Source: Desulfobacterium sp. (GTDB lineage Bacteria; Desulfobacterota; Desulfobacteria; Desulfobacterales; Desulfobacteraceae). From it: a DNA stretch of 64,000 nt. The position numbers and the translations under genes were made by a program. A model generated the notes under the pieces. It ran no database searches. It was not told the origin of the DNA and saw nothing but the letters and a program-made list of their open reading frames with translations. Location of the stretch: contig JAEINR010000003.1 in assembly GCA_016342325.1 (NCBI GenBank), forward strand, positions 35,106 through 99,105. Direction: 5' to 3'. Positions 3 through 20,053 of this stretch are shown in pieces (positions within the stretch are counted from its first letter, which is position 1; each line of letters opens with the position of its first letter).

Positions 3-575
3 AACTCCATCCTCAACCTTGCCAGGATCGAGAGCCGCAGCTACGGGGCTGAACTGACACGGGTGGACCTGGTCGAGGTGACCCGGAACTTTTGCGACAA
101 GAACCAGACCCTGTTTCGCAATCTTGCCATCACCATCACCAACCCCGAGAATCGACGGTTTGTTTATCCGGTCAACCTGCTTTTGTTTGAGATGCTCCTG
201 ATGAATATCCTCTCCAACGCGGAAAAGTACAACAACGGTGGAAAACCCGCCGTGGAGATCGTGTTCAATCTCCACAAGCAGCGGCTTTCCATCGAGTTCT
301 CCGACAACGGCATTGGGATTGAGCCGGCAGAGATTAAGAAAATTTTCAGAAAATTCTACCAGACTGGCAGGCAGGAGGAGACCAACGTCAAGGGCAGCGG
401 TCTGGGCCTCTATCTGGTATTCAGCATTGCAAAGATACACGGATGGAGGGTTTCTGCCAAGAGTCGGGGTAAGGGAGAAGGGGCCACCTTCATCCTCACC
501 TCGCCCCGGGAGGATTTTGGCGATATCAATGGGAGAAATTTATGGAAGATGCTGAAAAAAAGCGCATCCTGGTAG
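3..575 (+). CDS. Sensor histidine kinase, C-terminal part (5' truncated by window edge)
   Basis: Frame open from base 3 (NSILNLARIE, end of HisKA); HATPase_c boxes NILSNAEKY, FSDNGIGI, FRKFYQ, GSGLGL; overlaps an OmpR-type regulator. Confidence 0.9.
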   Translation, partial: NSILNLARIESRSYGAELTRVDLVEVTRNFCDKNQTLFRNLAITITNPENRRFVYPVNLLLFEMLLMNILSNAEKYNNGGKPAVEIVFNLHKQRLSIEFSDNGIGIEPAEIKKIFRKFYQTGRQEETNVKGSGLGLYLVFSIAKIHGWRVSAKSRGKGEGATFILTSPREDFGDINGRNLWKMLKKSASW

Positions 576-1273
576 TCGAGGATGAAGCGCACATAGCCGA
601 AGGGATTAAGCTTAATCTCACCATGCAGGGATACGGGGTGAGGATCGCCGCGGACGGGATCGCAGGCCTTGACCAGTGGCGGCACTGGCACCCTGACCTG
701 ATCATCCTCGATATCATGCTGCCCATGATCGACGGGTTGTCTGTCTTGAGAAGCATCCGCAATGAGGATGAAAAGTTGCCCGTGCTCATCCTCTCTGCCA
801 AGGGCACTGCCGAAGACAGGGTGCAGGGACTGCGCTGCGGCGTGGACGACTACCTTGCCAAACCCTTTGACCTGGATGAGTTCCTTTTACGGGTTGAACG
901 GCTCCTTGCCAGAAAATCGTGGTATGTTGAGGATAGTCCCCCCCCGGGACCTGAGGAGCCTCCCTTTCCCGGGGAAACCTACAGGTTCGGTGATAACCTG
1001 GTCAACTTCACCACCTGCCAGGCAGAATCCATGGCCGGGACCATCACCCTGACCGAGCAGGAGATCAAGCTGCTCAAGGTGTTCATTGCAAACCGGGGCA
1101 AGCCCGTGGCCCGGGAGAAGCTTCTGGAGGCCGGCTGGGGGTACTCCGGCACCACCACCACCCGGACCGTTGACAATTTCATGGTGAGATTCAGAAAGTA
1201 TTTTGAAAAAAACTCGAAAAAGCCTGTTTATTTCAAGAGCCGCCGTTCAGTGGGATACATCTTTGACCATTAG
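542..1273 (+). CDS. OmpR/PhoB-family response regulator
   Basis: REC motifs ILVVEDE, LDIMLP, AKPF; winged-helix RTVDNFMVRFRKYFE...GY. Confidence 0.93.
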   Translation: MEDAEKKRILVVEDEAHIAEGIKLNLTMQGYGVRIAADGIAGLDQWRHWHPDLIILDIMLPMIDGLSVLRSIRNEDEKLPVLILSAKGTAEDRVQGLRCGVDDYLAKPFDLDEFLLRVERLLARKSWYVEDSPPPGPEEPPFPGETYRFGDNLVNFTTCQAESMAGTITLTEQEIKLLKVFIANRGKPVAREKLLEAGWGYSGTTTTRTVDNFMVRFRKYFEKNSKKPVYFKSRRSVGYIFDH

Positions 1274-2001
1274 CCATGGATTTTTCCGGTTACCAGACTG
1301 AGGGAGTAGCGGGTGCCAATGGTCGTTGTGAGGATCGATACAGGGGCTTCCACGCCATGGTGCAAAATTTGGCCGTCAATCACTTCCACCTTGTAAAGGC
1401 TTTCATTAAATCCCTTTTTGATGTACTTTAAAAAAGCCTCCTTGATTGTCCAGTGTTTGAAAATATCCTGGGCCATGGTCCCCATGGAGGCCAGCTCGTT
1501 TTGGGTAAAAGCGGTTTTCATGAACGAGCTGTCGGGTGTCTTCCCGATCTCTTCGATGTCAAGACCGATGTCTATCCCCTCCCTTGTGGTGAGGCCGACG
1601 GCAGCATAGTCGCCCGAGTGGGAGATGGAGATCCTGAACCCGGGAAGACCTTTTATAAAAGGTGCACCTTCGTCCTGGTGCATGACCGTGATTTCGGTTA
1701 TGGGCGTATCGTTGTTCAGGGCCCTTTGCACCATGGTCTTGACAAGAAACCGTCCGGCCATCCATTCGACCTGTTTCTTGAGGCTCCTGAACCTGTTCAC
1801 CATCTCAATCTCCCCGGGGGAGAGAAAAACGGTCCGGAAATCTTCTTTTTTAAACAATCGGTTTCTTTTTACCTGGAAATTATGCCAACCGTTTTCTGCC
1901 ATAAGGCAGTGGTTGAGAAACGAGGAGATGCTGTGGTAACAGATCCTGGTTCCGGGTTCAGGTTCAAAGCAGTTGCAGGATAGTCTCTCTTTATCTTCCA
2001 T
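1270..2001 (-). CDS. Sfp-type 4'-phosphopantetheinyl transferase
   Basis: WMAGRFLVK, GAPFI, ISISHSGDY, IGLDIEE, HWTIKEAFLK motifs; 243 aa. Confidence 0.9.
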   Translation of the reverse strand: MEDKERLSCNCFEPEPGTRICYHSISSFLNHCLMAENGWHNFQVKRNRLFKKEDFRTVFLSPGEIEMVNRFRSLKKQVEWMAGRFLVKTMVQRALNNDTPITEITVMHQDEGAPFIKGLPGFRISISHSGDYAAVGLTTREGIDIGLDIEEIGKTPDSSFMKTAFTQNELASMGTMAQDIFKHWTIKEAFLKYIKKGFNESLYKVEVIDGQILHHGVEAPVSILTTTIGTRYSLSLVTGKIHG

Positions 2002-2032: not shown

Positions 2033-2106
2033 TTAGCTTCTTCGCTCTGATTTTACGTTGCTTTGGCAAGAGAATCAGAACTTTTGGGTTCTGGTTTGTC
2101 CGGGTT
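2033..2106 (+). repeat. Dispersed intergenic repeat family A, copy 1
   Basis: GCTCTGATTTT..TTGGCAAGAGAATCAGAA..GGTTCTGG.TTGTCC.GGTT; manual alignment to 20814, 44180 and 49227. Confidence 0.8.
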
Positions 2107-2237
2107 CGAATGGAGGGGTTATGACCTCTGTAATAAAAAATAATAGCATAACATAGGTGCTGATCAACCTTAAGTCAACTGGCTTGTTCCCACGACGTGT
2201 CTGTTCGGAATGTTTTTTAACCCAAAGAGGCAAACCC

Positions 2238-4382
2238 ATGACCGTAAGAGCAAAATTGATATCCCTGGGGCTGTTGAGCCTCCTTGCGACCAGCATCCTT
2301 TTCGGGGTGAGCTGGTACTCCATGTCAGCCAAAGCCCGCCTTGATAACGATCTTGAAACCCTTGCCACCATGAACCTTGCCATGTTCAAGGCCATTGTCC
2401 GGGAAAAGGAGTTTTTCATTGATCATGATCTTGAAAACACCCGCCGGGCGGAAGAACATTTTGACACCATCCGGGAATCCATTCACCGGGTGAAGCAGGG
2501 GCTGTTTTTTGACCGTGAAGAGGTGGATTCCCTTGCCAAAACCGTTGATAACTATCGAATCGCCCTTTTATCCCTGTTTGATGTGGAGATCAAGGTTCAG
2601 GGGATTCTCAAGGAGATCGAACAACAGGTTGCAACGTTCAACACCGGGTTCATGGAGCGCAATGCCTCCCCCGGGGACCCGCTCAATGCCGGTCAATCCT
2701 CTCCTGGTGTAAAGGTCTGGGAAATCCTTGAAAAACAGGGGGTGGTCCTGGTGAGCAAGACCGTTGGGAGCGTTAACCGGGATCTCATGGTCAACCAGGA
2801 CATGATGGGTTTTTATAAGACTACCAAGGCCGTGTTTGAAATTCTGGACAAGGTGAAGGCGATCGCAGGCCCCCTGAAGATCCGTCTTACAGCCGAGGGG
2901 CGGGAAGATCTCCATGGAGACATCGATCGGTTCATCCAAACGGCTGAATTTTTGCCGGGGCAGGTCCGGGCCCTGATTAACCTTTGGCCCGGACGGTCAA
3001 AGCTGCTGGTCAACCTTGACGATTCAAGAAAAAAGATGGTGGGATACCTCAACCTGATCTCAAAAAACGCCAGGGCCCAGGAAAAGAAGCAGGAGCGGAT
3101 GCTGTTTTGGGTCAACCTTGCCGTGTTTGGCATGGTCGTCCTGATCCTTGTGATCGGGGGCTCCCTGACACTGGCCGCAGTTCTGGATCCCATCCAGAAA
3201 GCGGCCCTAGGATTAAAAAATATTGCCCAGGGCAAGGGGGATCTGACCCAGAGTCTTGCGGTGGGTGCGGATGACGAGATCGGGGCCCTTGCCACTTGGT
3301 TCAATGCATTTATCCGGAAGCTGAGGGAGCTTGTGACCCGGATCAGCGACAATGTCCGGGTGCTGGGGGGCGCTTCTTCAGATCTGCTATCCATCTCCCG
3401 GCAGCTGGAAGAGCGGGCGTCGGGCATGGACCGCCAGGCCGTGACAACGGTGGGTCTCATACAGAAGACCCTGGGCAGGTTCAAGGCCATGGGTGCATCC
3501 ACCGCCGAGGTGAGTGTCAGGATCGACTCGGTGGCCCTGTCGTCGGCCACGGTTTGCCGGAAACTTGACAACAGCAGGACGGCGGTGGACAGTCTCTCCT
3601 CAGCCGTGACATCCCTGGCCTGTGCCATGGAAGAGATTTACGCGACCCTGAATGAGGTGACCGCCAACGCATCCCACGGATCCACCATCACCTCTGACGC
3701 CGCAACAAAGGCAGAGGATACCAACGCCATCGTCACCGTCATGGGCACCTCGGCAGCCGAGATCGGGGACGTGATCGACCTGATCCAGGACATCGCCTTT
3801 CAGACCAATTTGCTTGCCCTGAACGCTTCCATCGAAGCTGCCGGGGCAGGGGAGGCGGGCAGGGGGTTTGCCGTGGTGGCCAACGAGGTAAAGGCCCTTT
3901 CCAAGCAGACTTCAAAGGCCAGCCGGGATATCAGGGCCAAGGTTAAATTCATGCAGACCAGCACCAACACCGCGGTGACGGCCATCCAGGCCATTGCTGC
4001 GGTTGTCCGGGAAGTGGACGTGATCATGGGATCCATTGCCACGGCCGTTGAAGAGCAGACAAAAACAGTCAATGACATTTCCAAAACTATTTCAAAGACG
4101 GCCGGGGATTCGGAAACCGTGGCGGAAAACATGGAGGAGCTGGTCCGGTTCGAGGCAGAGGTGAGCCGGGCAGTGGGCGAGGTGGCCCAGGCGTCCAAAG
4201 CCATTGCTCAGCAACTGGCCAAGGCGTCCGACGACAGTGACCAGGTCCTGAAGACCATGGAGACCCTGAGCCTTGATGTGGAGAGCACGGCCCAGAGTGC
4301 CGAGAGCACCAAACGGCAGGCAGGGGATCTTTCCGTGATTGCCAGAAACCTTGAAACCGTGATGGAGGAGTTCAAAATCTGA
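2238..4382 (+). CDS. Methyl-accepting chemotaxis protein (2 TM, HAMP, MA domain)
   Basis: [36 protein letters not shown] hairpin tip; [22 protein letters not shown]; AGAGG RBS before ATG 2238 (ORF track start 2157 is an alternative). Confidence 0.93.
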
Positions 4383-4411
4383 CACGCATCAGCAGGAGGA
4401 GGACGAAACCG

Positions 4412-4882
4412 GTGATGGGGGATAACAACGGTTCAGACACAAGGGGATGGCAGGTTGTCCGGTTCACCATCGACGACCTTTCCATGGGGATCGACATCCT
4501 GGGGGTCAGGGAGGTGACCGTCATTGCCAGGATCACCCCGGTCCAGCAGGCGCCTTCCTTTGTCAGGGGACTGATCAATTTAAGGGGGCAGACGGTGACG
4601 GTGGTGGACCTTGGCGTGAAACTGGGCAGGCCCGGGAGAACTGTGGGCGAACAGGCCCACGTCATTGTCCTGAAACAAGCCCATGTGGGGATACTGATTG
4701 ACACCATCGGGGAGATCGTTCCTGTGGCCGGAGGGATCGAGCCTGTCCCTTCCACCATGGGTTTTGTTGAAAACGATGCCATTGAAGGTGTTGTCAACCT
4801 GGAACATGATCCAGTGCTCATTGTTTCCCCGGAGGGATTCCTGGATTCCATGGTAACGAACTCCAGGGGGGAAAAAGCGTGA
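4412..4882 (+). CDS. cheW: Chemotaxis adaptor CheW
   Basis: ITPVQQAPSFVRGLINLRGQTVTVVDL; lies between MCP and CheA. Confidence 0.9.
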   Translation: MMGDNNGSDTRGWQVVRFTIDDLSMGIDILGVREVTVIARITPVQQAPSFVRGLINLRGQTVTVVDLGVKLGRPGRTVGEQAHVIVLKQAHVGILIDTIGEIVPVAGGIEPVPSTMGFVENDAIEGVVNLEHDPVLIVSPEGFLDSMVTNSRGEKA

Positions 4883-7524
4883 CCATGGGCAACTCCCAGA
4901 ATTTGACTCCGGGCTTTGCCAGGGAGTTTATTGCCGATATACGGGACGACCTGGAGGTGTTGGAACCGGATCTTCTGGCCATGGAGGCGTTGGGGAGTAA
5001 TGTCGGCTGTGACCTTGTCAACAACGCCTTCAGGGCCGTTCACAGTATCAAGGGGGGAGCCGGGTTCGCCGGGCTTACCCACCTTGGCGACCTTGCCAAC
5101 TCCATGGAAAACGTCCTCACGGCGTTGAGGGAAAAGAAACTTTCCCTGGTTTTTCCTGTGCCGGATGTCCTGCTGGCCGGGCTGGACAGGATGAAAACCC
5201 TGGTGGCGGCCCTGGATTCCGACACCCAGCCCTCCCATGAAAGGGAGAAACTGGCTTTGGAAGCCTTGATTTCATCCCCTGACGGCACTGTGTACCATGG
5301 GCGCTGTGGCCCTTTCCTGGCGGACCGGCTGGGACGTATGCTGGATCCGGGCGTTCTCAAGAAGGCCGTGTCCCAGGGAAAGCTGATCTATGCCGTTGAA
5401 TTCGATCCCCAACAGGATTTTTTGGAGAAAAACCGGAGGGTTCGGGAGCTGTTAACAGATATCGAGAGCATCGGAGAACTTGTTTTTGCCGATTTTGACC
5501 CAACCCTGGCACCCGGGACTCTTGGCCCGGGACAAGGACCCCTTACGGCGGTGGTTGCCACCATCCTGGATCCTGATTTCCTGGCCCAGGTGCTTGAGGT
5601 GGAATCCAGCCGGATCATCCCCCTTGACCCGGACGCCATGGAATTCCCTGAACCCTCTCCCCAAGTGCCACCTGGGTCAGAGCACCCGGAAGCTTCGGGG
5701 GCGGGCATGGCCATGTCTCCTTTACCCAATGGTTTGCCCCAGGAGGTACCCGCCACAACCATCCGGGTCAATGTGGAACTGATCTCCCGGTTGATGAACC
5801 TTGCAGGCGAACTTGTGCTGACCCGCAATCAGTTTCGATCCCTGGTGGAGAGGATCGCCGTGCAGGATGCCGGGGTCAACCAGGTGATGCAGTCCCTTAA
5901 CACGGTGACATCCCTGATCCAGGAAGATATCATGCGGTTGCGGATGCAACCCTTTGGCAACCTTGTTTCAAGGTTCAGGAGGATCGTCCGGGACCTTTCA
6001 AATAGCCTTGGCAAACGGGTGGATCTCCTGGTGGAGGGCGGGGAAGTGGAGCTGGACAAGCGCGTGTTGGAGGGGCTTGCCAACCCCTTTACCCATTTGG
6101 TGAGAAATTTTGTCGACCACGGCATTGAAACGCCCGATTCCCGGAAACGGGCAGGCAAGCCAACCAATGGAACCATCCTGATAAGGGTGGGTCAGCAGGG
6201 TGGCCAGGTCCATATCTCTATCCAGGACGACGGCCGGGGCATCGATCCCGATACCATTGGTGCCGTTGCCGTTGACAAAGGGCTTGTCACCCGGGAGAGT
6301 GTGTTCTCCATGACGGACAAGGAGAAGATCAACCTGGTGTTCAAACCCGGTGTATCAACCGCTGAGACCATCACCGACCTGTCCGGGCGGGGAGTGGGAA
6401 TGGATGTGGTCAAGACCAATATCGAGAACCTCAAGGGGCGGATCGAGATCGAGTCGACCCCGGGCCGGGGCACCCGGGTGCAAATCACCATTCCCCTGAC
6501 CCTTGCCATTGTTTCCGCCCTGATCGTTGGCACCGGCGGGCTTAGGTTCGCCATTCCCCATATGCAGATGCAGGAGGTTTTCCATCTAAAGCCGGGGGAG
6601 CTTCAAACTTGCGTGGAGCGGGTTGGCGGTTTTGATGTGCTGGGTTTCAGGGGAGGGCTGCTGCCGGTGGTGAGGCTCAGGACACTTCTTGGAATAGAGA
6701 CCCTTTTTTTTGATTCCATAACCCGGGAGGAACGGAGGGAGCGCAGGTTCTCCATTTCCGGTCCCAGGAGAGGACAGGATCGGCGCAAGCAGGCCGGGGG
6801 GGGCATTTTTGTGATCGTGCTCAAACAGGGTATCAATCGCTTCGGGTTGCTTGTGGAAGAGATGTTCGACACCGAGGAGATCGTTGTCACCCCCCTGGGG
6901 CCGGGGCTTTCAACCTGTGTTTGTTTCAGCGGATCTACGTTTAACGGTGATAGTGGGGTGATCATGATCCTGGATGCCCCTGGCATGGCAGACCAAGCAC
7001 GTCTGGGATTTGGGGCGGTGGCCCGGGAGGAAAAGCGGCGCAGGGGCGGAAAGCTTGGAGAGGAAAAGCAAGGGCTCTGCCCTGTCAACCTTATGCTTTT
7101 CTCCTTTGCCCCGGATGACTATTTTGTGGTACCACTGGCGTCCCTGGCACGGCTTGACGTGATCCGGCCCACGGATATCCACACGGTAGGGCAACAACGG
7201 TTCATGGACCACAAGGGGACAACCACGACCCTTTTTTTTCTGGATGAAATCATCCCGGTTGCCCCCTGTGAGCCCAGTGGCGGTCCGGTGGGCGTGATCT
7301 TTCCCAGGGGGCTCGGTGTCAGCGCAGGCATTGTGGTGGGAATGGTCATGGATACCGTGGCGTTTTGTGAAAGTATGAACACCGACCCGGTCTCTCCCGA
7401 CGGAATTCGGGGCACGGCCTTTATCGGTAACAGACGGGTGCGGTTCCTGGACATGGAGCACATTTCAAAGCGGATGGAAACACTGGTAGAAACAGCGGGT
7501 TCAATGATTGGAGAAGAGGAATGA
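4879..7524 (+). CDS. cheA: Chemotaxis histidine kinase CheA (Hpt, dimerisation, HATPase, two CheW-like domains)
   Basis: FRAVHSIKG Hpt His; HLVRNFVDHGIE; DDGRGID; SGRGVGMDVV; second CheW-like C-terminal domain. Confidence 0.93.
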   Translation: MTMGNSQNLTPGFAREFIADIRDDLEVLEPDLLAMEALGSNVGCDLVNNAFRAVHSIKGGAGFAGLTHLGDLANSMENVLTALREKKLSLVFPVPDVLLAGLDRMKTLVAALDSDTQPSHEREKLALEALISSPDGTVYHGRCGPFLADRLGRMLDPGVLKKAVSQGKLIYAVEFDPQQDFLEKNRRVRELLTDIESIGELVFADFDPTLAPGTLGPGQGPLTAVVATILDPDFLAQVLEVESSRIIPLDPDAMEFPEPSPQVPPGSEHPEASGAGMAMSPLPNGLPQEVPATTIRVNVELISRLMNLAGELVLTRNQFRSLVERIAVQDAGVNQVMQSLNTVTSLIQEDIMRLRMQPFGNLVSRFRRIVRDLSNSLGKRVDLLVEGGEVELDKRVLEGLANPFTHLVRNFVDHGIETPDSRKRAGKPTNGTILIRVGQQGGQVHISIQDDGRGIDPDTIGAVAVDKGLVTRESVFSMTDKEKINLVFKPGVSTAETITDLSGRGVGMDVVKTNIENLKGRIEIESTPGRGTRVQITIPLTLAIVSALIVGTGGLRFAIPHMQMQEVFHLKPGELQTCVERVGGFDVLGFRGGLLPVVRLRTLLGIETLFFDSITREERRERRFSISGPRRGQDRRKQAGGGIFVIVLKQGINRFGLLVEEMFDTEEIVVTPLGPGLSTCVCFSGSTFNGDSGVIMILDAPGMADQARLGFGAVAREEKRRRGGKLGEEKQGLCPVNLMLFSFAPDDYFVVPLASLARLDVIRPTDIHTVGQQRFMDHKGTTTTLFFLDEIIPVAPCEPSGGPVGVIFPRGLGVSAGIVVGMVMDTVAFCESMNTDPVSPDGIRGTAFIGNRRVRFLDMEHISKRMETLVETAGSMIGEEE

Positions 7525-7594
7525 TTATGGGGAGCGGGGCATGTGATGTCAAAAAGGGAAATAAGGAAAGTCTGATCCCAATAAGGAGGCGTAG

Positions 7595-7993
7595 ATGAAG
7601 TTTCTTGTTGTGGATGACAAGGCATCTGTTCGTTCGACCATGGTGGATATTCTGGCCGGACTTGGATTCAACGATGTGACGGAGGCCGTGGACGGCAGTG
7701 ATGCCTGGTTTAAGCTAAAGGCGGAGTTTGAAGGGGTGAAGCCTGAGACGTTCGATCTGATCATCTCCGACATGGAGATGCCCGCGATGACGGGGCTGGA
7801 TCTGTTAAAGGCCGTGAGGGGGGATCGGAACCTGAAGGAGACCCCCTTTATCATGGTAACGAGCATCAATACCAAAGAGACGATTATTGCCAGCATGAAG
7901 CTCGGGATCAAGGCTTACATCATCAAGCCCTTTACCAAGGAATCCGTGGCGGCCAAACTGGTGCAGGCAGGTTTTTTAAAGAAGACGGATTGA
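7595..7993 (+). CDS. cheY: Single-domain response regulator CheY
   Basis: LVVDD, ISDMEMP, MVTS, IIKPF; GGAGG RBS. Confidence 0.88.
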   Translation: MKFLVVDDKASVRSTMVDILAGLGFNDVTEAVDGSDAWFKLKAEFEGVKPETFDLIISDMEMPAMTGLDLLKAVRGDRNLKETPFIMVTSINTKETIIASMKLGIKAYIIKPFTKESVAAKLVQAGFLKKTD

Positions 7994-8073
7994 CCGGGTA
8001 TGGTGGGCCTGGCCCCATGACCAGGTCCGTTTTTTTACTCCGGAAACGATTGGCCGTATGTCTTCCGGGATTT

Positions 8074-10185
8074 TTATCCCAGAAAGGACTGGCCATAGGT
8101 TTTCCAGATGTCCAGGGCAATGCGCAGGGGTTTCATCATGGGAACCGTGTAGGTATGAAGTTTTTTTTCGGCCATGTAGGCCCTGCAGCGGTCCACATAG
8201 GGTGAGAATCCCCGTGGGGAAATGATCAGGGGTTTGGTTAACTCATCCCGTAATTCCACAAGACGTTCCGGCAGGTATTCAGAGAGTAACGGCACCTGGA
8301 GGTAGATGGCGGCAATGATCACATCCGTGTGGGGATCTTTATCCACGATGCGGATGGATTCCAGGAGTCTTTCATCGCCACAGTTGCCAAAGAGATCAAT
8401 GGGATTATTCCCCACATTTTTCAAAATTTTATCGCTGATCGCTTTCTGTTCAGGCTTCAGGTCTTTTTCAATCAAGTCCTGCATTCGTTTTCTGGTTTCA
8501 GGGACAAACTCGGCCAGGCGCATGCCTTCTTCCGTGACCTGGTCTGCGATTAAAATACCGGCCCCGCCGCCAACACTGACCACGGCAATGCGTTTGCCGT
8601 CTGTTTTGGGTTGGCTGGTGAGGATGGAAATAACATTGACCAGGATTTTCGGATCCTCTGTCAGCTCCTCCACCAGATAAAAACCGGCTTGCTGACAACA
8701 GGCTTTAAAGGCTTCATGGCTGCCGGCAAGGGAGGCCGTGTGGGAAAGGGCCGCTTCCGCCCCCCCGCCCATTCCGCCCTTGATGATCAGGACAGGCTTT
8801 TTGCGGGCAACGGCTTTTCCCACTTTCATCAGTTTCAGGCCGTCGGCCACCCCCTCCAGGTAAATGGCGATGATTTTTATTTTCGGATCATCCCCCATGT
8901 GGGCCAGAATTTCCGGAACGCCCACACTGCCGGCATTTCCAATGGAGACCCATTTGCCGAGATTTTGGTTGTCCGCACCGAACATTTCAAGAAGTTCAAG
9001 GCCGATTCCGCCGCTTTGGGAGATCACGCCGACACAATTGGATGTTGCCGCAGGTACGGACCGTTGAACCGGTATGTAGTTGGTGTTGAGCCCGGAGAAG
9101 TTGTCAATCACTCCCATGCAGTTGGGGCCGATAAATGCGACCTTGTAGGTTTCACTGAGACGGATAAGTTTATCTTCAAGATCTTTCCGGCCCATTTCGG
9201 CAAAACCGTCGCTGAATATGATGGCCCCTTTTCCCCCCAGTTTGCAGAAATCCTCAAAGATGGCGACCGTTCTTTCGGAACTGACGGCAAACACACAGAC
9301 TTCCGGTACTTCAGGCAGAGCGGAAAGAGAGGGATAACAGGTGAGCCCGTGTATTGTCTTCAGTTTGGGATGCACCGGATAGAGATGTTTGATGCCCATG
9401 CAGTTTTTCAGTATCACGCCGCCCTGGGTGCCTGGCCGGGACGCACCGATGACAGCAACTGATTGGGCGTTGAAAATGGCATTGACACTATCGCGTTTCC
9501 AGTCTCTGACATCCATGGACATTGGGGCCACAACATTCGTATCCCGGATCAGCCTGGCGTCCACAACGGCGTATCCGTTTTCATAGGCAATGACCGGATT
9601 CAGGTCCAGTTCACAGATGTCCGGATTTTCGGCCATGAGCCTTGACACATTGATGACCAACTCAATAATGCTGTCCCGGTCATATTGCTGTCCCCGGAAT
9701 CCGTCAAGCACTTTTCCCGCCCGTGTGTTTGACAGCATCCGTTCCACATCTTTTACGGATAACACACCGATGCCCATGGCCGCATCGGAATACAATTCCA
9801 CAAAAATGCCGCCCAGGCCGATCATGGTGATGGGACCGAATCCGGGATCCTGTTTCGCCCCAACAAGAAGTTCAAATCCTTTGTCTGCCATTTTCTGGAT
9901 CAGCAGCCCTTCTTTCTCTTCCCTGGAAAACCCCTTGATTTTTTTTTCAATGGTCAGACAGGCCGCTTCCAACTGGGTTGGGTCTTTAATGTCCAAAAAG
10001 ACCACCCCTTGGTCGGATTTGTGGATAATCTTTTTTGAAACAGGCTTTACCACTACCGGATAGGTTATTTCATCGGCAGCCTTGACCGCATCTGCTGTGT
10101 CATACACCTGTCTGCCTTGGGCCTGTATATTATATTTTTGCAATAACTCGGCACTTTCTTCAAAGTTTATCTGCTGTTTATCCAT
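8074..10185 (-). CDS. ADP-forming acetate/acyl-CoA ligase, ATP-grasp (beta) domain N-terminal to CoA-binding (alpha) domains
   Basis: IIHKSDQGVV, GAKQDPGFGP, ELDLNPVI, then VAVIGAS, GPNCMG, SQSGG, ALSHTASLAG (phospho-His), NNPIDL. Confidence 0.88.
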   Translation of the reverse strand: MDKQQINFEESAELLQKYNIQAQGRQVYDTADAVKAADEITYPVVVKPVSKKIIHKSDQGVVFLDIKDPTQLEAACLTIEKKIKGFSREEKEGLLIQKMADKGFELLVGAKQDPGFGPITMIGLGGIFVELYSDAAMGIGVLSVKDVERMLSNTRAGKVLDGFRGQQYDRDSIIELVINVSRLMAENPDICELDLNPVIAYENGYAVVDARLIRDTNVVAPMSMDVRDWKRDSVNAIFNAQSVAVIGASRPGTQGGVILKNCMGIKHLYPVHPKLKTIHGLTCYPSLSALPEVPEVCVFAVSSERTVAIFEDFCKLGGKGAIIFSDGFAEMGRKDLEDKLIRLSETYKVAFIGPNCMGVIDNFSGLNTNYIPVQRSVPAATSNCVGVISQSGGIGLELLEMFGADNQNLGKWVSIGNAGSVGVPEILAHMGDDPKIKIIAIYLEGVADGLKLMKVGKAVARKKPVLIIKGGMGGGAEAALSHTASLAGSHEAFKACCQQAGFYLVEELTEDPKILVNVISILTSQPKTDGKRIAVVSVGGGAGILIADQVTEEGMRLAEFVPETRKRMQDLIEKDLKPEQKAISDKILKNVGNNPIDLFGNCGDERLLESIRIVDKDPHTDVIIAAIYLQVPLLSEYLPERLVELRDELTKPLIISPRGFSPYVDRCRAYMAEKKLHTYTVPMMKPLRIALDIWKTYGQSFLG

Positions 10186-10288
10186 GGTCGTCCTTAACTT
10201 TATATAACGGCGTTTATATTATAATTTCAATTATCAGGGTCGGTTTTTAACCTGGGTATTATTCTGAGTGTTTGAAATGCTGATGGAC

Positions 10289-10369
10289 TATAGTGCCGGT
10301 GAAATGACATGATGCCATCCTGACCCTTATTAGTAGGTAGCGGTATCAATTGATTTGACCAGAGCAATA
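10289..10369 (+). mobile_element. MITE-like repeat family B, copy 1 (81 bp)
   Basis: TATAGTGCCGGTGAAATGACATGATGCC...GGTATCAATTGATTTGACCAGAGCAATA; imperfect terminal inverted repeats with TA ends; four copies in window. Confidence 0.7.
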
Positions 10370-10706
10370 ACAAGGTTTTTTTATGTGATGTGTATACCTC
10401 ATGCTTAACGAATAAATTTTAAAAGAAATTTTGTTGAAAATAATATACTTATATCTCGTATAAAAATCAAAGAATATTCCGGCAATTACTTCCCTAGGCT
10501 GAATGTTGTAGGAATTCCACGGTTGAGCAGTTCAATTCTTTTCCAAAGAGTGCTTTTCTGCCGAATTTACCGATCCTGGTTTTAAAATGCCCCTGGTCCT
10601 GGTATGGTCAGGGGGCGGATACAGAACCGTTGAGAAAATAAGTACGGTGCAGTTAATCAGGCCATCCCGATCCATGACCGGGGATGGCTGCAAATCCGGA
10701 GGCAAT

Positions 10707-11207
10707 ATGAATTCCCAAGACATTTTCAAACATGCCCTGACCTATGAAAAAAAGATCCGGGATCTATACCGATCTGCCGTGGAAACCATTGACGACAAAC
10801 GGGGAAAAGCCATTTTTAAGGCCCTGGCCGATGATGAACAATCCCATGTTGATTTTCTGGAATACAGCCTGGATCTGCTGGCATCGGCCAAGGAGATTGA
10901 TATCGAAAAGCTCGGGTCCGCTATTCCCGTGCCGGTTGAAGACCATATCAAACAGATGAAAGAAAAGATTCCTGAACAGATGCTGGGGGATGTCAAGCGG
11001 GTTCTGAATGCGGCCCTGGTCCTTGAGATCGAAACCAGTAAATTTTATAAAAAAGCCTGTGGGGATTCCCAGGGAAGGATCAAGGAGATCCTTGAAAAAT
11101 TTTATGAGATTGAACAGCGTCATGTGGCGGTGGTCCAGATTGAACTGGACCAGGCCACCGGCAGCGGTTTCTGGTTTGGTTTTATGGAAAAGGATATGGA
11201 AGATTAA
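10707..11207 (+). CDS. Ferritin-like / rubrerythrin-family diiron protein
   Basis: ALTYEKK..LY, LADDEQSH, ALVLE..FY, IEQRH diiron motifs; GGAGG RBS before ATG 10707. Confidence 0.85.
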   Translation: MNSQDIFKHALTYEKKIRDLYRSAVETIDDKRGKAIFKALADDEQSHVDFLEYSLDLLASAKEIDIEKLGSAIPVPVEDHIKQMKEKIPEQMLGDVKRVLNAALVLEIETSKFYKKACGDSQGRIKEILEKFYEIEQRHVAVVQIELDQATGSGFWFGFMEKDMED

Positions 11208-11286
11208 CAAGGGGTAAAGAGTGACCTGCCGGGGGGGATGTATGCCCGCAAGCCCCCCGGGAAATCAACGTTAGGACCCTAGGCTC

Positions 11287-13341
<2,055 letters not shown>

Positions 13342-13367
13342 TTAAAATTAAATGTCCAGGTTAGGAT

Positions 13368-13396
13368 AAAGGGCAGGAGAGGACTCCTGCCTTTTT
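13368..13396 (-). terminator. Intrinsic terminator downstream of the surface-protein gene (possibly bidirectional)
   Basis: AAAGGGCAGGAG-AGGA-CTCCTGCCTTTTT hairpin with A/T tracts. Confidence 0.6.
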
Positions 13397-13428
13397 ATAC
13401 GATATGCAACGATTCCCTTTTTGAGACA

Positions 13429-14763
13429 TTATCTGCGTCTTACGGACCTTACAGCGATTCCAGCCAAAAGCATACCGATAAATGCCGTCAATGGCGCGGC
13501 CATGCCGGAGGGCGTTGTTATGGTGTTGATAAAACAGCTGCTGGTGTCGGAGGCCTCAGAAGAAGACGTCCCTGGAGCAAACACGGTCAGGTGATCTACA
13601 AAGAAGGTCACCTGGCCAATGGGGTTCTCGTATAGAATATTGGCTGTCGGAACCGTATCTCCAGTCCCGCTTTCAATCAAGGAAACGGCATCCGCATAGT
13701 AAATAAATGCTTTTGGGGCGGCAAAATCCCCCGTCGTGATCACCGTTGTATCAAAGGGAATGGTGATTTCGATTCGGCTGATTTCACCTGTCTCCAGGGG
13801 GAGACCTGTGTCATTGTCGATGGCGTTGATCTCCACGTACATCCCGGGGGTACCGTTGCTGTATTTACTGGTGTCGGTTTTGACAATGGTATTAATCTCC
13901 AGGGTTGCGGATTTTGCCAGGCCATTGACCGGTACGGTCACTTCAACCGTATCGTAATTATCCTTATCCGCGCCATTATTGAATTTGCCGCCTGGGATGG
14001 ATACGGATTTCCGGGTAGCGGACGAGGGTTCATTCTTTCTGTAGGTGAACGCCTGGTTACGGATGTAAACCGTATCGCTTCCCGGTTTGACGAGAAGAAC
14101 AAAATCATTGTTAACCATGGTAAAAGAGACAACCCCGTCATTGAATGCGGTCAGTATTTCACCCGCCTCTTCAGCATCATACACTTTCACATCTTCGGCA
14201 CCGGTCAGTGGCCCGGAGCCATTGTCCGCTTTGATGGATACCCGCACGATTCCATCCGCCGGCGCACCCACGGTAATGGCCAGTGGTGTTTCCCGGTACA
14301 GTGTCAACGTGGTACTTTCAGCCCCTTCGTCCCACAGATCGGGGACCTCAACCATATCCTTGACATAGTACCCGTCCTTGGACGCAAAGGCCTTCCATCC
14401 GGTACTTGAAGCCTCTACCGGTAACGTGATGCTGTAGTTGGATTCCTCGTTTGTATCTGTTGGGCTTTCATAGGTATTTTTGTCTGCATTAAAAACCGTC
14501 ACCAGGGCATCGGTCACAAGGGCACCCGCCTGGTCCACCACGTTTCCTTTAATGACAAATTGACCTTCTTTTTTCAACCCAACGGTTACCTCTGTCTTGT
14601 CCCTAGGGGTTGTCTGCTCTATGGCCCCATTGCCCTCGTCACCGGTGTTGTCGATAACAGCCGAGCCGACGTTAAGCGACTTGGCTGCAAAAACAGTTTG
14701 TCCACCCCCCAGGCTGATGAACAACCCTATAATGGGTATGACAAAAATCTTGAATATCTTCAT
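13429..14763 (-). CDS. Secreted surface protein with carboxypeptidase-regulatory-like beta domain and CFI-box-like CTERM anchor
   Basis: N-terminal signal peptide; Thr/Asp/Gly-rich beta character; C-terminus SSCFINT + hydrophobic helix + RSVRRR. Confidence 0.7.
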   Translation of the reverse strand: MKIFKIFVIPIIGLFISLGGGQTVFAAKSLNVGSAVIDNTGDEGNGAIEQTTPRDKTEVTVGLKKEGQFVIKGNVVDQAGALVTDALVTVFNADKNTYESPTDTNEESNYSITLPVEASSTGWKAFASKDGYYVKDMVEVPDLWDEGAESTTLTLYRETPLAITVGAPADGIVRVSIKADNGSGPLTGAEDVKVYDAEEAGEILTAFNDGVVSFTMVNNDFVLLVKPGSDTVYIRNQAFTYRKNEPSSATRKSVSIPGGKFNNGADKDNYDTVEVTVPVNGLAKSATLEINTIVKTDTSKYSNGTPGMYVEINAIDNDTGLPLETGEISRIEITIPFDTTVITTGDFAAPKAFIYYADAVSLIESGTGDTVPTANILYENPIGQVTFFVDHLTVFAPGTSSSEASDTSSCFINTITTPSGMAAPLTAFIGMLLAGIAVRSVRRR

Positions 14764-15382
14764 AAGATTACTTCCTCTCTATATTAATTTGGATTTCTAT
14801 TTGTTTTTGAATTGCCCGTAGATCATTCGTCTTCCGTGGAAAGCCTTGTTTTAGGGGGGCAGTTCTTCGGATGATTTAGGCGGGAGGAGGGGGCCTTTTA
14901 TAGAATGTGGACGTGTAAACAGAGTGAACCTGGCCCGGTCGAATGGAACACGCCTTAAAAAGGGTTGCCTCCGGAAGACCTGCGGCCAGGGGGAATAGTC
15001 CCATCAGGAAGATTGAAGAAAATTTCTTTTTAGAACTTTTCACAAACACCTTTAAGCGTTTTGCACTCACATTCTTTACCGGAACGAAATTATAAGATAA
15101 CCGTGAACAAGTTATTCGATAGCACATTCTTTCAGAATATTCACCCTGTTTCAATACTCGGGATGACAGTGTCTATCCCTAGGCCACCGGCAGCCCGTCG
15201 TCATGTGCGAATTCACCGGAGGGGCCTTGGCTGGCCGGGGGGTAAAATCCGGATAAATAGATCTTTGGTTGATACTTTCTTCGGCTCGCTGTTATGATCA
15301 ATTTCAATTTGAAGGATCGGTGGACGTTTTGAAGGGTCGGTGGGCGTTCTCTGATGAACGGTTGCCCCCGGGTAAAGGAGGA

Positions 15383-18121: not shown

Positions 18122-18204
18122 TCATGTCCAGGGCCATGGCGGGCGGCGCTCTCCAGGGCGGTCTGTTTCCCGGATTGGCGGCCGACGATCTGGCCGTTGC
18201 AGAT

Positions 18205-18241
18205 CCACAGCGCCATGGGGGCGCTCTCCATGGCGCTGTGG
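18205..18241. terminator. Perfect 14-bp-stem hairpin between convergent genes
   Basis: CCACAGCGCCATGG-N9-CCATGGCGCTGTGG; no U-tract, so terminator role is uncertain. Confidence 0.45.
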
Positions 18242-18250
18242 AATACGCTG

Positions 18251-19267
18251 TTATTCTACGGAATAACCCGGAATAAAATCAGGTTCCCTGACCGTTTTCA
18301 TGGAGATGGCCTCCTCGGGACAAACCGTTGCACATTGACCGCATCCCAGGCATTTTTCTTCGTTCACTTCAGCGATGCCGTCTTTGTTCATGGCAATCGC
18401 TCCAAACCAGCACCGTTCTTCACACAGGCCGCAGGCGGAACATTTGTCGTCCGCAATGGCCGGACTGTAACGGCTTGGATCACAAAGGGAGACACCGTTT
18501 GCCACCAGCATGGAGAAAGACTGACAGCAACACCCGCAGCAATTGCAGATGAACCCGCCGATATCGGCTTTATTCATGGTGACGTGGACAAGGCCCGCCG
18601 CCTGGGCGCTTTCTATGATTTCAAGGGCTTCCGCCTGGGTTACTTCGCGACCGGATCCCCTTTCAATGGTGTATTCCGCCCCCCGGTTCACTTGAAGACA
18701 CACCTCCAAGGGGGCGTCGCATTTACCCATGGTCAGTCTGCACGTGCATTTGGTGACCGCTAATCGATCGGCTTTCTCGATGGTTTGCCTTACGTCTTCC
18801 GTGGTAAGCACTTTCACCTTTCCCGTGTCAATGGATTTATTGACGGGAATAACCCGGGTAAACGGCTTGGGTATGAATTGCTCTATCAACGGTGCCAGCT
18901 TCGGCCATTCCTCCTCCATATACTGTTTCCACAGACCGTAAAAAGCCTTGGGAGCTCCGGGCCAGACAATGCTTGCATCATGGAACTGGGCAATATGAGC
19001 CGGAGCCCTAAAGGTTTCAACCCCGTCTTTCATTCTTTTAAACGCCAGTCCTTTGTGAAATAGATCGGCAAGGTCCGACGCGATTTCTTTTTCACTACGG
19101 TCCAATTTCACCGCTAACGAATTTTTGGTTCCAGGCAAAGAGATCAAAAGTGCAGCCTGTTCTGCATTGATCATGAATTCAAGTATCCGGGGGATCCAAA
19201 TCGAATCTTCATGGAACATATTCGCGGCAAATTGTTGATAGGGTGATTTCTCGGTCATGGTGATCAT
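18251..19267 (-). CDS. Iron-sulfur protein with Cys-rich core and C-terminal 2x[4Fe-4S] ferredoxin domain
   Basis: KCTCR..CDAPLEVC, ICNCCGCCC, CSACGLCEERC, CLGCGQCATVCP. Confidence 0.82.
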   Translation of the reverse strand: MITMTEKSPYQQFAANMFHEDSIWIPRILEFMINAEQAALLISLPGTKNSLAVKLDRSEKEIASDLADLFHKGLAFKRMKDGVETFRAPAHIAQFHDASIVWPGAPKAFYGLWKQYMEEEWPKLAPLIEQFIPKPFTRVIPVNKSIDTGKVKVLTTEDVRQTIEKADRLAVTKCTCRLTMGKCDAPLEVCLQVNRGAEYTIERGSGREVTQAEALEIIESAQAAGLVHVTMNKADIGGFICNCCGCCCQSFSMLVANGVSLCDPSRYSPAIADDKCSACGLCEERCWFGAIAMNKDGIAEVNEEKCLGCGQCATVCPEEAISMKTVREPDFIPGYSVE

Positions 19268-19468
19268 TCTCCAAAAATTAGTAAATGTAAATACTGCACT
19301 TGAGCATGAAATCGGTCGATCTGTGGCCTTTTGTAATCTCTACCTGATCAGCTTTCCATTTCAGCAGCGTGTCTATTTGCTTTTTCTATATTTGGGTCAT
19401 GTTTCTTCTCAGATGGTCCAGCGTTATCCCTGGATCCAGGCTGTGGCATAAAGGTTCCGGGTAAAATT

Positions 19469-20053
19469 TTAAGACCGAACAAACTCAAACAGCAGAGCAT
19501 AATCGTGATCATCAGCAGCCTTGAGAGCTTCAATGTACTTTTGTCTGGTTTTTCCGGATTTTGCCAGATTAGTGCCTTGTCCCCAGGAGAAAATATCCAC
19601 ATTGAATATTTTCTCCAGGATCAGGTCAGCCATATATCTTGAATGCCTGCCATTGCCATTCGAAAATGGATGAATAAAAACAAGCTTGTGATGAAACCTT
19701 GCTGCAAACTCATCCGGAGGATATGTGTTGAATTCTATCCATGCGTTTGCATCATCGCATAGTGTTTGCAACTCCACCTCAATCAAGCGGGGCGGGACCC
19801 CGATATTTTTGTCGGTCTTCCGGAATTTGCCGGCCCAGGACCAGACGTTTGAAAACATCTTTTTGTGCACATCACAAATAAACTTGGGATCCAAGCTATT
19901 TCTTTTTTTCAGTTTGCTTCCCCAGGTCATGGCTTCTTTGATGTTTTCGGCCTCCCAGAAGTCTAATTCCCCCCTGGTTGATATATGCGTCAGCAAAAGT
20001 CCCTGAAGTTCATCGTAATCAAGCGGAGTTGCATCTTTTTCGTATTCGATCAT
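19469..20053 (-). CDS. Mobile mystery protein B (Fic domain)
   Basis: Fic motif HPFSNGNGRHSR; DATPLD..E N-terminus; WAGKFRKT; paired with an HTH gene; lower GC than flanks. Confidence 0.88.
   Translation of the reverse strand: MIEYEKDATPLDYDELQGLLLTHISTRGELDFWEAENIKEAMTWGSKLKKRNSLDPKFICDVHKKMFSNVWSWAGKFRKTDKNIGVPPRLIEVELQTLCDDANAWIEFNTYPPDEFAARFHHKLVFIHPFSNGNGRHSRYMADLILEKIFNVDIFSWGQGTNLAKSGKTRQKYIEALKAADDHDYALLFEFVRS

What the first reader, a model, noticed from the sequence alone, without database searches (positions are those of the whole stretch)
1270..2001. Sfp-type PPTase 20 kb from the megasynthase: candidate Thr-modifying enzyme
Seen: intact GxDxE and WxxKEAxxK motifs, an unusual Cys/His-rich N-terminal extension (LSCNCF..ICYH..NHC), the same strand as the PKS, and no carrier protein beside it. 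Inference: it is the PfaE-equivalent, and if the DT ACPs are functional its active site should show compensating changes.
Basis: partly seen in the sequence, partly recalled or inferred. Interest (0 to 1): 0.62.

Follow-up and report, generated by a model that had tools for sequence, protein, structure and literature searches.

The report
Partner transferase of threonine carrier domains
This gene encodes an ordinary-looking enzyme of the type that attaches the phosphopantetheine arm to carrier proteins, but it belongs to a clade found almost only in genomes with a giant lipid synthase whose carrier domains have threonine where all studied ones have serine, so it is the obvious candidate for a threonine-linked version of that attachment, which has not been described.

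Summary
Window 1270-2001 (minus) encodes a 243-aa Sfp-type phosphopantetheinyl transferase with intact Mg/catalytic motifs, 20 kb from, and co-oriented with, a 3877-aa megasynthase whose four ACPs read LGIDTVKQVE.

In 401 Desulfobacterales genomes the PPTase clade and the Thr-ACP motif occur together in 57, the PPTase alone in 4, the motif alone in 1, and neither in 339. The PPTase lies directly beside the megasynthase in many relatives, including Spirochaetota. In this lineage an ~18.7 kb block flanked by a ~75 bp direct repeat separated the two genes.

- The Cys/His residues of the N-terminus are not conserved beyond the genus. That region is a normal, confidently folded part of the enzyme.
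- No Thr-specific change is visible at the catalytic residues. The clade signatures (KKQxEW, GAP) persist in the one relative whose megasynthase has Ser-ACPs.

In three closed genomes this clade is the only detectable PPTase, although two of them carry both Ser and Thr carriers. The enzyme therefore probably accepts both. Transfer to threonine remains inferred, not shown.

The parts
1270..2001 (-). Sfp-type (type II) 4'-phosphopantetheinyl transferase gene, 243 aa
   Evidence: ORF. Pfam PF01648 and PF22624 above cut-off. AF2 model pLDDT 88.5. Foldseek matches 2cg5 (TM 0.70) and 4mrt (TM 0.62).
1552..1566 (-). G146-L-D148-I-E150, the Mg2+-binding motif (Sfp D107/E109)
   Evidence: Alignment to Sfp 1qr0/4mrt. 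D148 invariant and E150 in 98% of 51 clade sequences.
1426..1452 (-). W184-T-I-K-E188-A-F-L-K192, the catalytic Glu/Lys motif (Sfp E151/K155)
1762..1779 (-). K75-K76-Q77-V-E79-W80, a clade signature where Sfp has EDAHRT. A related KRKxDF occupies this position in the second PPTase sub-clade.
   Evidence: The signature is also kept (KVQxEW) in the Ser-ACP-associated ortholog of G064, so it is not Thr-specific.
1846..2001 (-). Predicted beta-hairpin (10-24) plus helix (25-32), then a lower-confidence loop.
   Evidence: AF2. The region is present in all orthologs, but the Cys/His are not conserved.
2033..2106 (.). Copy 1 of a ~75 bp direct repeat, about 30 bp upstream of the PPTase start
   Evidence: Collinear blocks of 90-100% identity with 20814-20891.
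2107..20813 (.). ~18.7 kb intervening block. It holds MCP-CheW-CheA, ADP-forming acyl-CoA synthetase, a rubrerythrin-like protein, an enoate-reductase-like protein, an SNF2 helicase, an Fe-S protein and a Fic/HTH pair.
   Evidence: Pfam for the genes from 8074 on; the MCP, CheW and CheA names are my reading of the translations, not a family search. The block is absent between PKS and PPTase in congeners G003-G007.
20814..20891 (.). Copy 2 of the ~75 bp direct repeat, abutting the PKS relic
20893..21161 (-). Relic of PKS 3' sequence: an ACP4 fragment (94.6% identical to 24552-24755) fused to a DH fragment (97.6% identical to 22500-22541). It still reads GIDTVKQVE.
21965..33598 (-). 3877-aa megasynthase (ER-KS-KS-AT-KS-4xACP-KR-DH), the presumed substrate of the PPTase
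24566..25657 (-). Four tandem ACP domains, each with Thr at the canonical Ser position (DLGIDTVKQVEIF)
   Evidence: About 30 other PP-binding domains in the genome all have Ser.
3..1273 (+). Histidine kinase C-terminus plus OmpR-type response regulator. These are convergent neighbours of the PPTase, conserved next to it across the family.
   Evidence: tblastn at 53-96% identity next to PPTase orthologs in 11 relatives. The kinase and regulator names are my reading of the translations, not a family search.

Best explanation
The gene encodes the cognate holo-synthase of the megasynthase at 21965-33598.

Proposed mechanism: it uses CoA and Mg2+ (D148, E150, E188), with E188/K192 as the catalytic pair. 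It transfers 4'-phosphopantetheine onto the hydroxyl of the threonine in each DLGIDTVKQVEIF carrier domain. It most likely also accepts serine carriers, which would make it a Ser/Thr-tolerant Sfp-type PPTase rather than a Thr-only one.

History of the locus: ancestrally the gene lay directly downstream of the megasynthase. In the lineage of this genome an ~18.7 kb block, flanked by a ~75 bp direct repeat, was inserted between them.

What is shown: family and fold; intact catalytic residues; co-distribution and synteny with the Thr-ACP megasynthase; the insertion scar.

What is inferred: that the ACP threonine is the attachment site, that this enzyme performs the transfer, and that it has dual specificity.
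For: 1. Family and fold.

2. The substrate anomaly is real and under selection.
- All 4 ACPs have Thr, against Ser in every other carrier of the genome.
- ACP2 has no Ser anywhere in its folded core.
- The Thr is kept in every orthologous ACP seen in Desulfobacterales, with one exception (G064, point 7), and in two Spirochaetota subfamilies. All four Thr codons are used.

3. Co-distribution.
- Among 401 Desulfobacterales genomes: 57 both, 4 PPTase only, 1 DT only, 339 neither (Fisher p = 3e-63, not corrected for phylogeny).
- Within families f12, f52, f58 and f67 presence and absence of the two covary.
- Two of the four 'PPTase only' genomes hold fragments of the megasynthase whose ACP part is not assembled.
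- All 13 other genomes with a PPTase ortholog have the DT motif, including Leptospirales, a Spirochaetes MAG and a 'Bacteroidales' MAG.

4. Synteny.
- The PPTase is within about 150 bp downstream of the megasynthase in G003-G007, G009, G036 and G040.
- It is about 3 kb from the ACPs in L092 and L094-L097, and upstream of the megasynthase in L099.
- A clade PPTase lies within ~11 kb at 8 of 11 Spirochaetota loci examined.

5. PPTase number.
- Genomes with the megasynthase usually have two PPTases, and those without it usually have one.

6. Dual specificity.
- In closed genomes G315 and G018, and in G030, this clade is the only PF01648 hit.
- Those genomes nevertheless encode both AcpP-type DSL carriers and DT ACPs.

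7. A natural Ser variant.
- In G064 the orthologous megasynthase reads LGIDSIKQVEIF (codon TCA) and is paired with a clade PPTase.
- Ser and Thr are therefore interchanged at exactly this position, as expected if it is the attachment site.

8. Why a special enzyme would be needed.
- E. coli ACP(S36T) cannot be phosphopantetheinylated (PMC3340395).

9. Insertion scar.
Against: - There is no biochemical or proteomic evidence that Thr carries phosphopantetheine.
- The catalytic residues are fully canonical, and no Thr-specific substitution can be named.
- This genome has two other PPTases (C153, inside an NRPS cluster; C17, ~200 aa), either of which could in principle act on the ACPs.
- One genome (G239, 100% complete but in 320 contigs) has a clade PPTase and no detectable megasynthase.
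- One genome (G429, 81% complete) has the megasynthase and no PPTase.
- Much of the co-distribution reflects shared vertical descent.
- 'Only PPTase in the genome' rests on the sensitivity of one Pfam model.
- In one search only two candidates per genome were scored, so genome-wide presence of the PPTase in Spirochaetota was not assessed.
Confidence: 0.66

Rival explanations
1. It is a general-purpose Sfp-type PPTase that works only on serine carriers (AcpP, the PUFA-like DS synthases, NRPS carriers). Its linkage to the Thr-ACP megasynthase would then be a historical accident, and the Thr-ACPs would be either unmodified or non-functional.
For: - The catalytic site is canonical.
- In G315, G018, G030 and G064 it is the only PPTase detected, so there it must serve Ser carriers.
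- E. coli ACP S36T is not modifiable.
Against: - The clade is essentially absent from the 339 Desulfobacterales genomes that lack the megasynthase, although those genomes also have AcpP and often DS-type synthases.
- Adjacency to the megasynthase has been kept or re-created in several arrangements and in different phyla.
- The megasynthase has intact KS Cys, AT GHSxG and KR Tyr motifs, no other carrier, and 2-8 strictly conserved Thr-ACPs. That pattern is hard to explain for dead domains.
Confidence: 0.12
2. The Thr-ACPs are phosphopantetheinylated, but by the ~200-aa housekeeping PPTase (the C17:128046 type) or by another enzyme. This PPTase would have a different client.
For: The window's genome and most relatives carry a second PPTase. 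Here the clade PPTase is no longer clustered with the PKS.
Against: - In G315, G018 and G030 no second PPTase is detectable, yet DT ACPs are present.
- The housekeeping type occurs in nearly all genomes regardless of the megasynthase, whereas the clade PPTase tracks the megasynthase.
- No alternative client co-distributes with the clade PPTase.
Confidence: 0.12
3. The enzyme transfers something other than plain phosphopantetheine, or the Thr-ACPs carry their acyl chain through a different linkage. The enzyme would then be a neofunctionalised PPTase homologue.
For: The clade differs from Sfp at positions that in Sfp lie near the CoA 3'-phosphate and adenine (KKQxEW for EDAHRT; GAP for GKP) (the assignment of those Sfp positions to CoA binding is from my own knowledge of the Sfp-CoA structure).
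Against: - The Mg ligands, H128 and the E188/K192 pair are all retained.
- The Ser variant in G064 keeps the same signatures.
- There is no positive evidence for another donor.
Confidence: 0.05

Closest known systems
Sfp (Bacillus subtilis) and human AASDHPPT, the prototype type II PPTases (PDB 4mrt, 1qr0, 2cg5)
   Same: - Same two-lobed fold (Foldseek TM 0.62-0.70).
- Same Mg ligands (D148/E150/E188 = Sfp D107/E109/E151), same K192 = K155 and H128 = H90.
- Broad acceptor range is typical of this group.
   Different: - Only 20-27% identity.
- Clade signatures: KKQxEW (Sfp EDAHRT), GAP (Sfp GKP), ISISH (Sfp FNISH), F198.
- The presumed acceptor residue is Thr, whereas all characterised members act on Ser.
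PfaE, the dedicated PPTase of PUFA (Pfa) synthases
   Same: Both are stand-alone Sfp-type PPTases genetically coupled to a Pfa-like iterative megasynthase with tandem ACPs. The role in the pathway is the same.
   Different: By the motif scheme quoted in Shulse & Allen 2011 (PMC3098273):
- It lacks P0 ((L/V)Rx(L/V)LS; here FRTVFLS).
- It lacks P1b (FNxSH) and has P1b' (hShxH; here ISISH).
- It has only the relaxed P1a (xGxP; here EGAP).
Its client ACPs read DTVKQVEIF rather than DSIKRVEIL.
[quoted passage not shown]
   Same: The paper lists Type S among clusters with an associated PPTase that carries P1a and P1b' motifs, which matches this protein. A Desulforapulum autotrophicum MAG holds an ortholog (36% identity) and four DT ACPs.
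   Different: - The paper does not mention threonine.
- I could not see its figure, so I could not confirm that Type S is this exact architecture.
- In the Desulforapulum MAG examined, the PPTase and the PKS are on different contigs.
PcpS-type single PPTases (Pseudomonas aeruginosa) that serve both primary and secondary metabolism
   Same: In G315, G018, G030 and G064 the clade enzyme appears to be the sole PPTase of the cell, as PcpS is (structural match 7bcz).
   Different: The sequence clade is different, and in most genomes a separate ~200-aa housekeeping PPTase coexists with it.

Membership tests
Sfp-type (type II) 4'-phosphopantetheinyl transferase superfamily | PF01648 (ACPS) domain above the gathering threshold | tested here: met
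   41.3 bits against a cut-off of 25.
Sfp-type (type II) 4'-phosphopantetheinyl transferase superfamily | A single ~230-aa chain with two similar lobes (N-terminal PPTase-like half plus C-terminal half) | tested here: met
   PF22624 at 31.6 bits against 27. AF2 model pLDDT 88.5. Foldseek to 2cg5/4mrt with E 1e-13 to 5e-15 and TM 0.62-0.70.
Sfp-type (type II) 4'-phosphopantetheinyl transferase superfamily | Mg2+ ligands and catalytic pair (Sfp D107, E109, E151, K155) and the His that binds the CoA 3'-phosphate (H90) | tested here: met
   D148, E150, E188, K192 and H128 align to these residues. D148, E188, K192 and H128 are invariant and E150 is present in 98% of 51 clade sequences.
Sfp-type (type II) 4'-phosphopantetheinyl transferase superfamily | Transfers 4'-phosphopantetheine from CoA to a carrier-protein serine | not testable with these tools
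   This needs an enzyme assay. The cognate carriers here have Thr at that position.
PfaE-type (PUFA-specific) PPTases, motif definition quoted in PMC3098273 | P0 motif (L/V)Rx(L/V)LS | tested here: not met
   The sequence is F55-R-T-V-F-L-S61, so the Arg is out of register.
PfaE-type (PUFA-specific) PPTases, motif definition quoted in PMC3098273 | P1a motif K(G/D)KP, relaxed to x(G/D)xP | tested here: inconclusive
   E111-G-A-P114 fits only the relaxed form. The Lys is replaced by Ala in 94% of the clade.
PfaE-type (PUFA-specific) PPTases, motif definition quoted in PMC3098273 | P1b motif (F/S)NxSH | tested here: not met
   I124-S-I-S-H128 is the P1b' form hShxH.
NCBIfam equivalogs HetI, AusB, AcpT | Score above the curated equivalog cut-off | tested here: not met
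   HetI 43.9 against 370; AusB 43.5 against 225; AcpT 34.2 against 174.
AcpS-type (type I) PPTase | ~120-aa single-lobe protein acting as a trimer | tested here: not met
   243 aa with two lobes. AcpS structures match only one half (TM 0.3). The acpS models score far below their cut-offs.

The most novel reading that the evidence does not exclude
This clade would be the first phosphopantetheinyl transferases that naturally load a threonine, producing O-(4'-phosphopantetheinyl)-threonine. Its members are found in Desulfobacterales, in Spirochaetota and in one MAG labelled Bacteroidales. They would retain activity on serine carriers and would have spread together with a family of Thr-ACP megasynthases as a two-gene module.
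Probability: 0.55. Interest if true: 0.8.

Novelty: new variant of a known kind. Interest (0 to 1): 0.66.

Why it matters
In every characterised acyl, peptidyl and aryl carrier protein, phosphopantetheine is attached to a serine. An S-to-T change is used in the laboratory as a 'dead' control (E. coli ACP S36T, PMC3340395).

A large, conserved family of megasynthases with threonine at that position therefore implies either a new form of the modification or a new way of using carrier domains. Naming the enzyme that co-distributes and clusters with those synthases makes the question directly testable with two small proteins, one ACP domain and this 243-aa enzyme.

If the enzyme does load threonine:
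- It would add a new residue to the chemistry of a universal cofactor attachment.
- It would supply a tool with an orthogonal acceptor for carrier-protein labelling.
- It would allow heterologous activation of a megasynthase that may be the main fatty-acid synthase of many sulfate reducers. That role was suggested for Type S in PMC3098273.

Tried and rejected
- Conserved metal site in the N-terminus: rejected. C9, C11, C20, H22, H31 and C32 are lost outside the genus, and the region is a confidently modelled hairpin plus helix of the normal fold.
- A Thr-specific active-site substitution: 51 clade sequences were compared with Sfp, AASDHPPT, the two paralogs of this genome and the Ser-associated G064 ortholog.
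  - The clade signatures (KKQxEW, GAP, S125, F198) are also present in G064.
  - G064's own changes (L191S, G197S) fall at positions where ordinary Ser-PPTases carry an aliphatic residue (L or I, as in the clade) and Gly, as in the clade. No determinant could be named.
- Chimeric PPTase+KS3 query over 401 Spirochaetota genomes, meant to give a second co-occurrence table: only two candidates per genome were scored, so PPTase presence could not be tabulated. I used flank retrieval instead.
- The repeat finder missed the flanking repeat because of small indels. It was recovered by alignment and blastn.
- Literature searches for threonine phosphopantetheinylation or Thr-ACPs returned nothing relevant. 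The library is partial, so this is weak evidence of absence.
- A PPTase-ACP-CoA complex model could not be made, because only single window-encoded chains can be folded.
- The phylogeny separates the clade from the Sfp/AASDHPPT/C153 outgroup with 98% SH-aLRT support, but the C17 paralog (a very long branch) falls inside it. The tree does not resolve whether G064's Ser is ancestral or a reversal. Long branches (G064, G239, C17) are unreliable.
Full report
**What is at the coordinates.**
Window 1270-2001 on the minus strand is a 243-aa ORF with an ATG start and an AGGA box 7 nt upstream. It matches Pfam ACPS (PF01648, 41.3 bits against 25) and the N-terminal PPTase domain PF22624 (31.6 against 27). 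It falls far below every NCBIfam equivalog cut-off (HetI, AusB, AcpT, AcpS).

By sequence its nearest solved relatives are Sfp and human AASDHPPT. An AlphaFold2 model built on 17 orthologs is confident (pLDDT 88.5, pTM 0.87). By Foldseek it matches AASDHPPT (TM 0.70), Sfp in complex with a carrier protein (4mrt, TM 0.62), PptT, PcpS and PptAb.

- G146-L-D148-I-E150 aligns to Sfp D107/E109.
- W184-T-I-K-E188-A-F-L-K192 aligns to Sfp W147..E151..K155.
- I-S-H128-S-G aligns to Sfp S89-H90.

The gene is co-oriented with the 3877-aa megasynthase at 21965-33598 and lies 19,964 bp from it. Its neighbours are a convergent response regulator and a divergent chemotaxis receptor, not a carrier protein.

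**The N-terminus.**
The Cys/His residues (LSCNCF, ICYH, NHC) exist. In an alignment of 17 orthologs, however, they are kept only in the closest relatives: C11, C20 and C32 within the genus, and nothing beyond it.

All orthologs have the ~50 N-terminal residues. Residues 10-32 are modelled as a beta-hairpin plus helix at pLDDT >90. AASDHPPT aligns over almost the full length of the protein. This is a normal part of the fold in this clade, not a conserved metal-binding extension.

**The substrate anomaly.**
The megasynthase reads ER(NMO)-KS-KS-AT-KS-4xACP-KR-DH. All four ACPs read DLGIDTVKQVEIF, with Thr where the PP-binding model expects the Ser. About 30 other carrier domains of the same genome all have Ser. 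These include AcpP, NRPS/PKS carriers and three other tandem-ACP synthases that read DSIKRVEIL. ACP2 has no serine anywhere in its folded core, so no alternative attachment residue is conserved.

The Thr is kept in every ACP of the orthologous megasynthase retrieved, with one exception (G064, below):
- Desulfobacterales.
- A 'Bacteroidales' MAG.
- Sixteen Spirochaetota genomes in two subfamilies, DTVKQVEIF and DTVKQAEMF.

All four Thr codons are in use. This is purifying selection, not a sequencing artefact. An earlier agent reached the same conclusion for the ACPs (e1-5209462).

In 41 close relatives the PPTase ortholog (E <= 1e-25) is present in 25 of the 27 genomes that have the megasynthase. 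The two misses are 81% and 88% complete. It is present in none of the 14 genomes that lack the megasynthase.

I then searched 401 evenly drawn Desulfobacterales genomes for the nucleotide pattern encoding GIDTVKQV(E/D) (58 positive, 0 for the reversed control) and for the PPTase (61 positive at E <= 1e-15). The result:

| | DT motif present | DT motif absent |
|---|---|---|
| PPTase present | 57 | 4 |
| PPTase absent | 1 | 339 |

The odds ratio is about 4800 with p = 3e-63, uncorrected for shared ancestry. Presence and absence covary inside families f12, f52, f58 and f67. This indicates several independent joint gains or losses.

The five exceptions:
- G105 and G158 have megasynthase fragments whose repetitive ACP part is not assembled.
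- G429 is 81% complete.
- G239 has a divergent clade PPTase and no detectable megasynthase.
- G064 is discussed below.

Starting instead from PPTase orthologs found in the GTDB species collection, all 13 genomes tested contain tandem DT motifs. These include a Leptospirales MAG and a Spirochaetes MAG whose PPTases are only 33% and 29% identical to ours. Identity of the PPTase and of the megasynthase to the window copies is correlated across 24 genomes (Spearman 0.90). In the PPTase tree the Desulfobacterales families come out as clades.

**Test: synteny.**
- The PPTase lies within about 150 bp downstream of the megasynthase, on the same strand, in five congeneric genomes (G003-G007), in G009, and in other families (G036, G040). 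The gap is 1.4 kb in G030 and 8 kb in G017.
- It lies about 3 kb downstream of the ACPs in five further Desulfobacterales MAGs, and upstream of the megasynthase in the 'Bacteroidales' MAG.
- In Spirochaetota a clade PPTase lies within ~11 kb at 8 of 11 megasynthase loci examined. It is immediately upstream in G699 and G595, and immediately downstream in all five loci of the second subfamily.

**How the window's layout arose.**
The histidine kinase and response regulator at window 3-1273 are the conserved convergent neighbours of the PPTase throughout the family. In G005-G007 the order is HK-RR, then PPTase, then PKS.

In the window, and in G002 and G001, a block beginning with the chemotaxis receptor gene adjoins the PPTase where G005-G007 have the PKS. 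In G002 the PKS lies about 25 kb from the PPTase on the same contig. In the window the block measures about 18.7 kb.

At the far end of that block lies a relic of PKS 3' sequence:
- An ACP4 fragment, 94.6% identical to the intact copy.
- A DH fragment, 97.6% identical.
- About 75 bp (20814-20891) collinear with the ~75 bp (2033-2106) that sit 30 bp upstream of the PPTase start.

It supports an ancestral PKS-PPTase junction that was split by an insertion or partial duplication.

**Is the enzyme Thr-specific?**
Genomes with the megasynthase typically have two PPTases: this clade plus a ~200-aa housekeeping type. Genomes without it typically have one.

In the closed genomes G315, G018 and G064, and in G030 (98% complete), the clade enzyme is the only PF01648 match even at E <= 1. 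G315, G018 and G030 nevertheless encode AcpP-type DSL carriers alongside their DT ACPs, G018 and G030 also have DS-type tandem ACPs, and G018 has an NRPS-type carrier. Unless an unrecognisable PPTase exists, the clade enzyme must serve both Ser and Thr acceptors in these genomes.

G064 (closed, 2.1 Mb) has the orthologous 3636-aa megasynthase, but both its ACPs read LGIDSIKQVEIF (codon TCA). It keeps a clade PPTase 1.3 Mb away. Ser and Thr are thus exchanged in evolution at exactly this position. This is what one expects if the position is the attachment site and the enzyme tolerates both residues.

**Compensating changes.**
Across 51 clade sequences the catalytic and cofactor residues are canonical and conserved. 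Clade-specific conserved positions are:
- K75-K76-Q77-x-E79-W80 (Sfp EDAHRT).
- G-A113-P (Sfp GKP).
- S125 (Sfp N87).
- A164.
- F198.

The Spirochaetota second sub-clade has KRKxDF at the first site. However, the Ser-associated G064 enzyme keeps KVQxEW, GAP and F198. These signatures therefore mark the clade, or recognition of the KQVEIF-type ACP, rather than Thr as such. I could not identify a Thr-specific determinant from sequence.

**Comparison with known systems.**
Functionally the enzyme is the PfaE of this system. By the motif scheme quoted in Shulse & Allen 2011 it lacks P0 and P1b and has P1b' (ISISH) and only the relaxed P1a (EGAP). That paper reports exactly this combination for the PPTase of its 'Type S' cluster from Desulfobacterium autotrophicum HRM2, which it suggested might be that organism's core fatty acid synthase (PMC3098273). 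The paper does not mention threonine.

E. coli ACP(S36T) is described as not modifiable by 4'-PP and is used as a dead control (PMC3340395). A 2026 abstract still defines PPTases as acting on conserved serines (PMC13001928). My searches found no report of phosphopantetheinyl-threonine, within the limits of a partial library.

**Verdict.**
The interpretation as cognate PPTase is strongly supported by distribution and synteny in two phyla, with one further locus in a MAG labelled Bacteroidales. The Cys/His extension and the expected active-site compensation are not supported.

The most likely mechanism is ordinary Sfp-type chemistry applied to a threonine hydroxyl by a Ser/Thr-tolerant enzyme. 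My confidence is about 0.85 that it is the partner enzyme, and about 0.6-0.65 that it loads the Thr. The step onto threonine is inferred and needs the simple loading experiment described under next steps.

Noticed in passing
G064:C1:206441-211177 (L164, L172, L199, L201) and G064:C1:1549784-1550332 (L176): A closed 2.1 Mb Desulfobacterales genome carries the orthologous megasynthase with Ser instead of Thr in both ACPs (LGIDSIKQVEIF, codon TCA). It has the clade PPTase as its only PPTase. This is a natural Ser/Thr swap at the attachment position.
   Followed up: partly
window 3-1273 (+), and L035-L053: The histidine kinase / OmpR-type response regulator pair is the convergent neighbour of the PPTase in at least 11 relatives across the family, even where the megasynthase is hundreds of kb away. 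The PPTase-regulator linkage is thus more stable than the PPTase-PKS linkage.
   Followed up: partly
window 2107-20813: The block separating the PPTase from the PKS holds a chemotaxis cassette, an ADP-forming acyl-CoA synthetase, a rubrerythrin-like protein, an Oxidored_FMN/Pyr_redox_2 reductase, an SNF2 helicase, an Fe-S protein and a Fic/DOC + HTH pair. It is bounded by a ~75 bp direct repeat and a PKS relic (20893-21161).
   Followed up: partly
G000:C17:128046-128300 (L002) and G000:C153:37749-38060 (L001): The genome has no AcpS-type (~120 aa) PPTase. The apparent housekeeping enzyme is a ~200-aa Sfp-like protein conserved across the order. A third PPTase (247 aa) sits next to a type II thioesterase at the end of an NRPS/PKS cluster, beside a TonB-dependent receptor.
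   Followed up: no
L231-L237 (Spirochaetota genomes G609, G634, G807, G539, G722, G669, G684); L261, L262, L265, L267, L271: There is a second, more divergent subfamily of Thr-ACP megasynthases (41-45% identity in the KS3 region; ACP motif DLGIDTVKQAEMF; ORFs ~1800-3100 aa). A PPTase sub-clade carrying KRKxDF in place of KKQxEW lies directly downstream. G494 has both subfamilies.
   Followed up: partly
window 33869-36486 (+): Divergently upstream of the megasynthase lie a sigma-54-dependent activator and a PlsC-type acyltransferase. The latter could off-load the product into a glycerolipid.
   Followed up: no
G239:C229:30243-30932 (L177): This is the only sampled genome with a clade PPTase (34% identity, long branch) and no detectable orthologous megasynthase. 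Its neighbours are unrelated, apart from a fatty-acyl reductase (NAD_binding_4) 4 kb away.
   Followed up: partly
G009:C244 and G267:C1:3884714-3888705: Genus g3 belongs to the window's own family, yet its megasynthase (49%) and its adjacent PPTase (32-33%) are as divergent as those of other families. This suggests replacement of the whole two-gene module by horizontal transfer.
   Followed up: no
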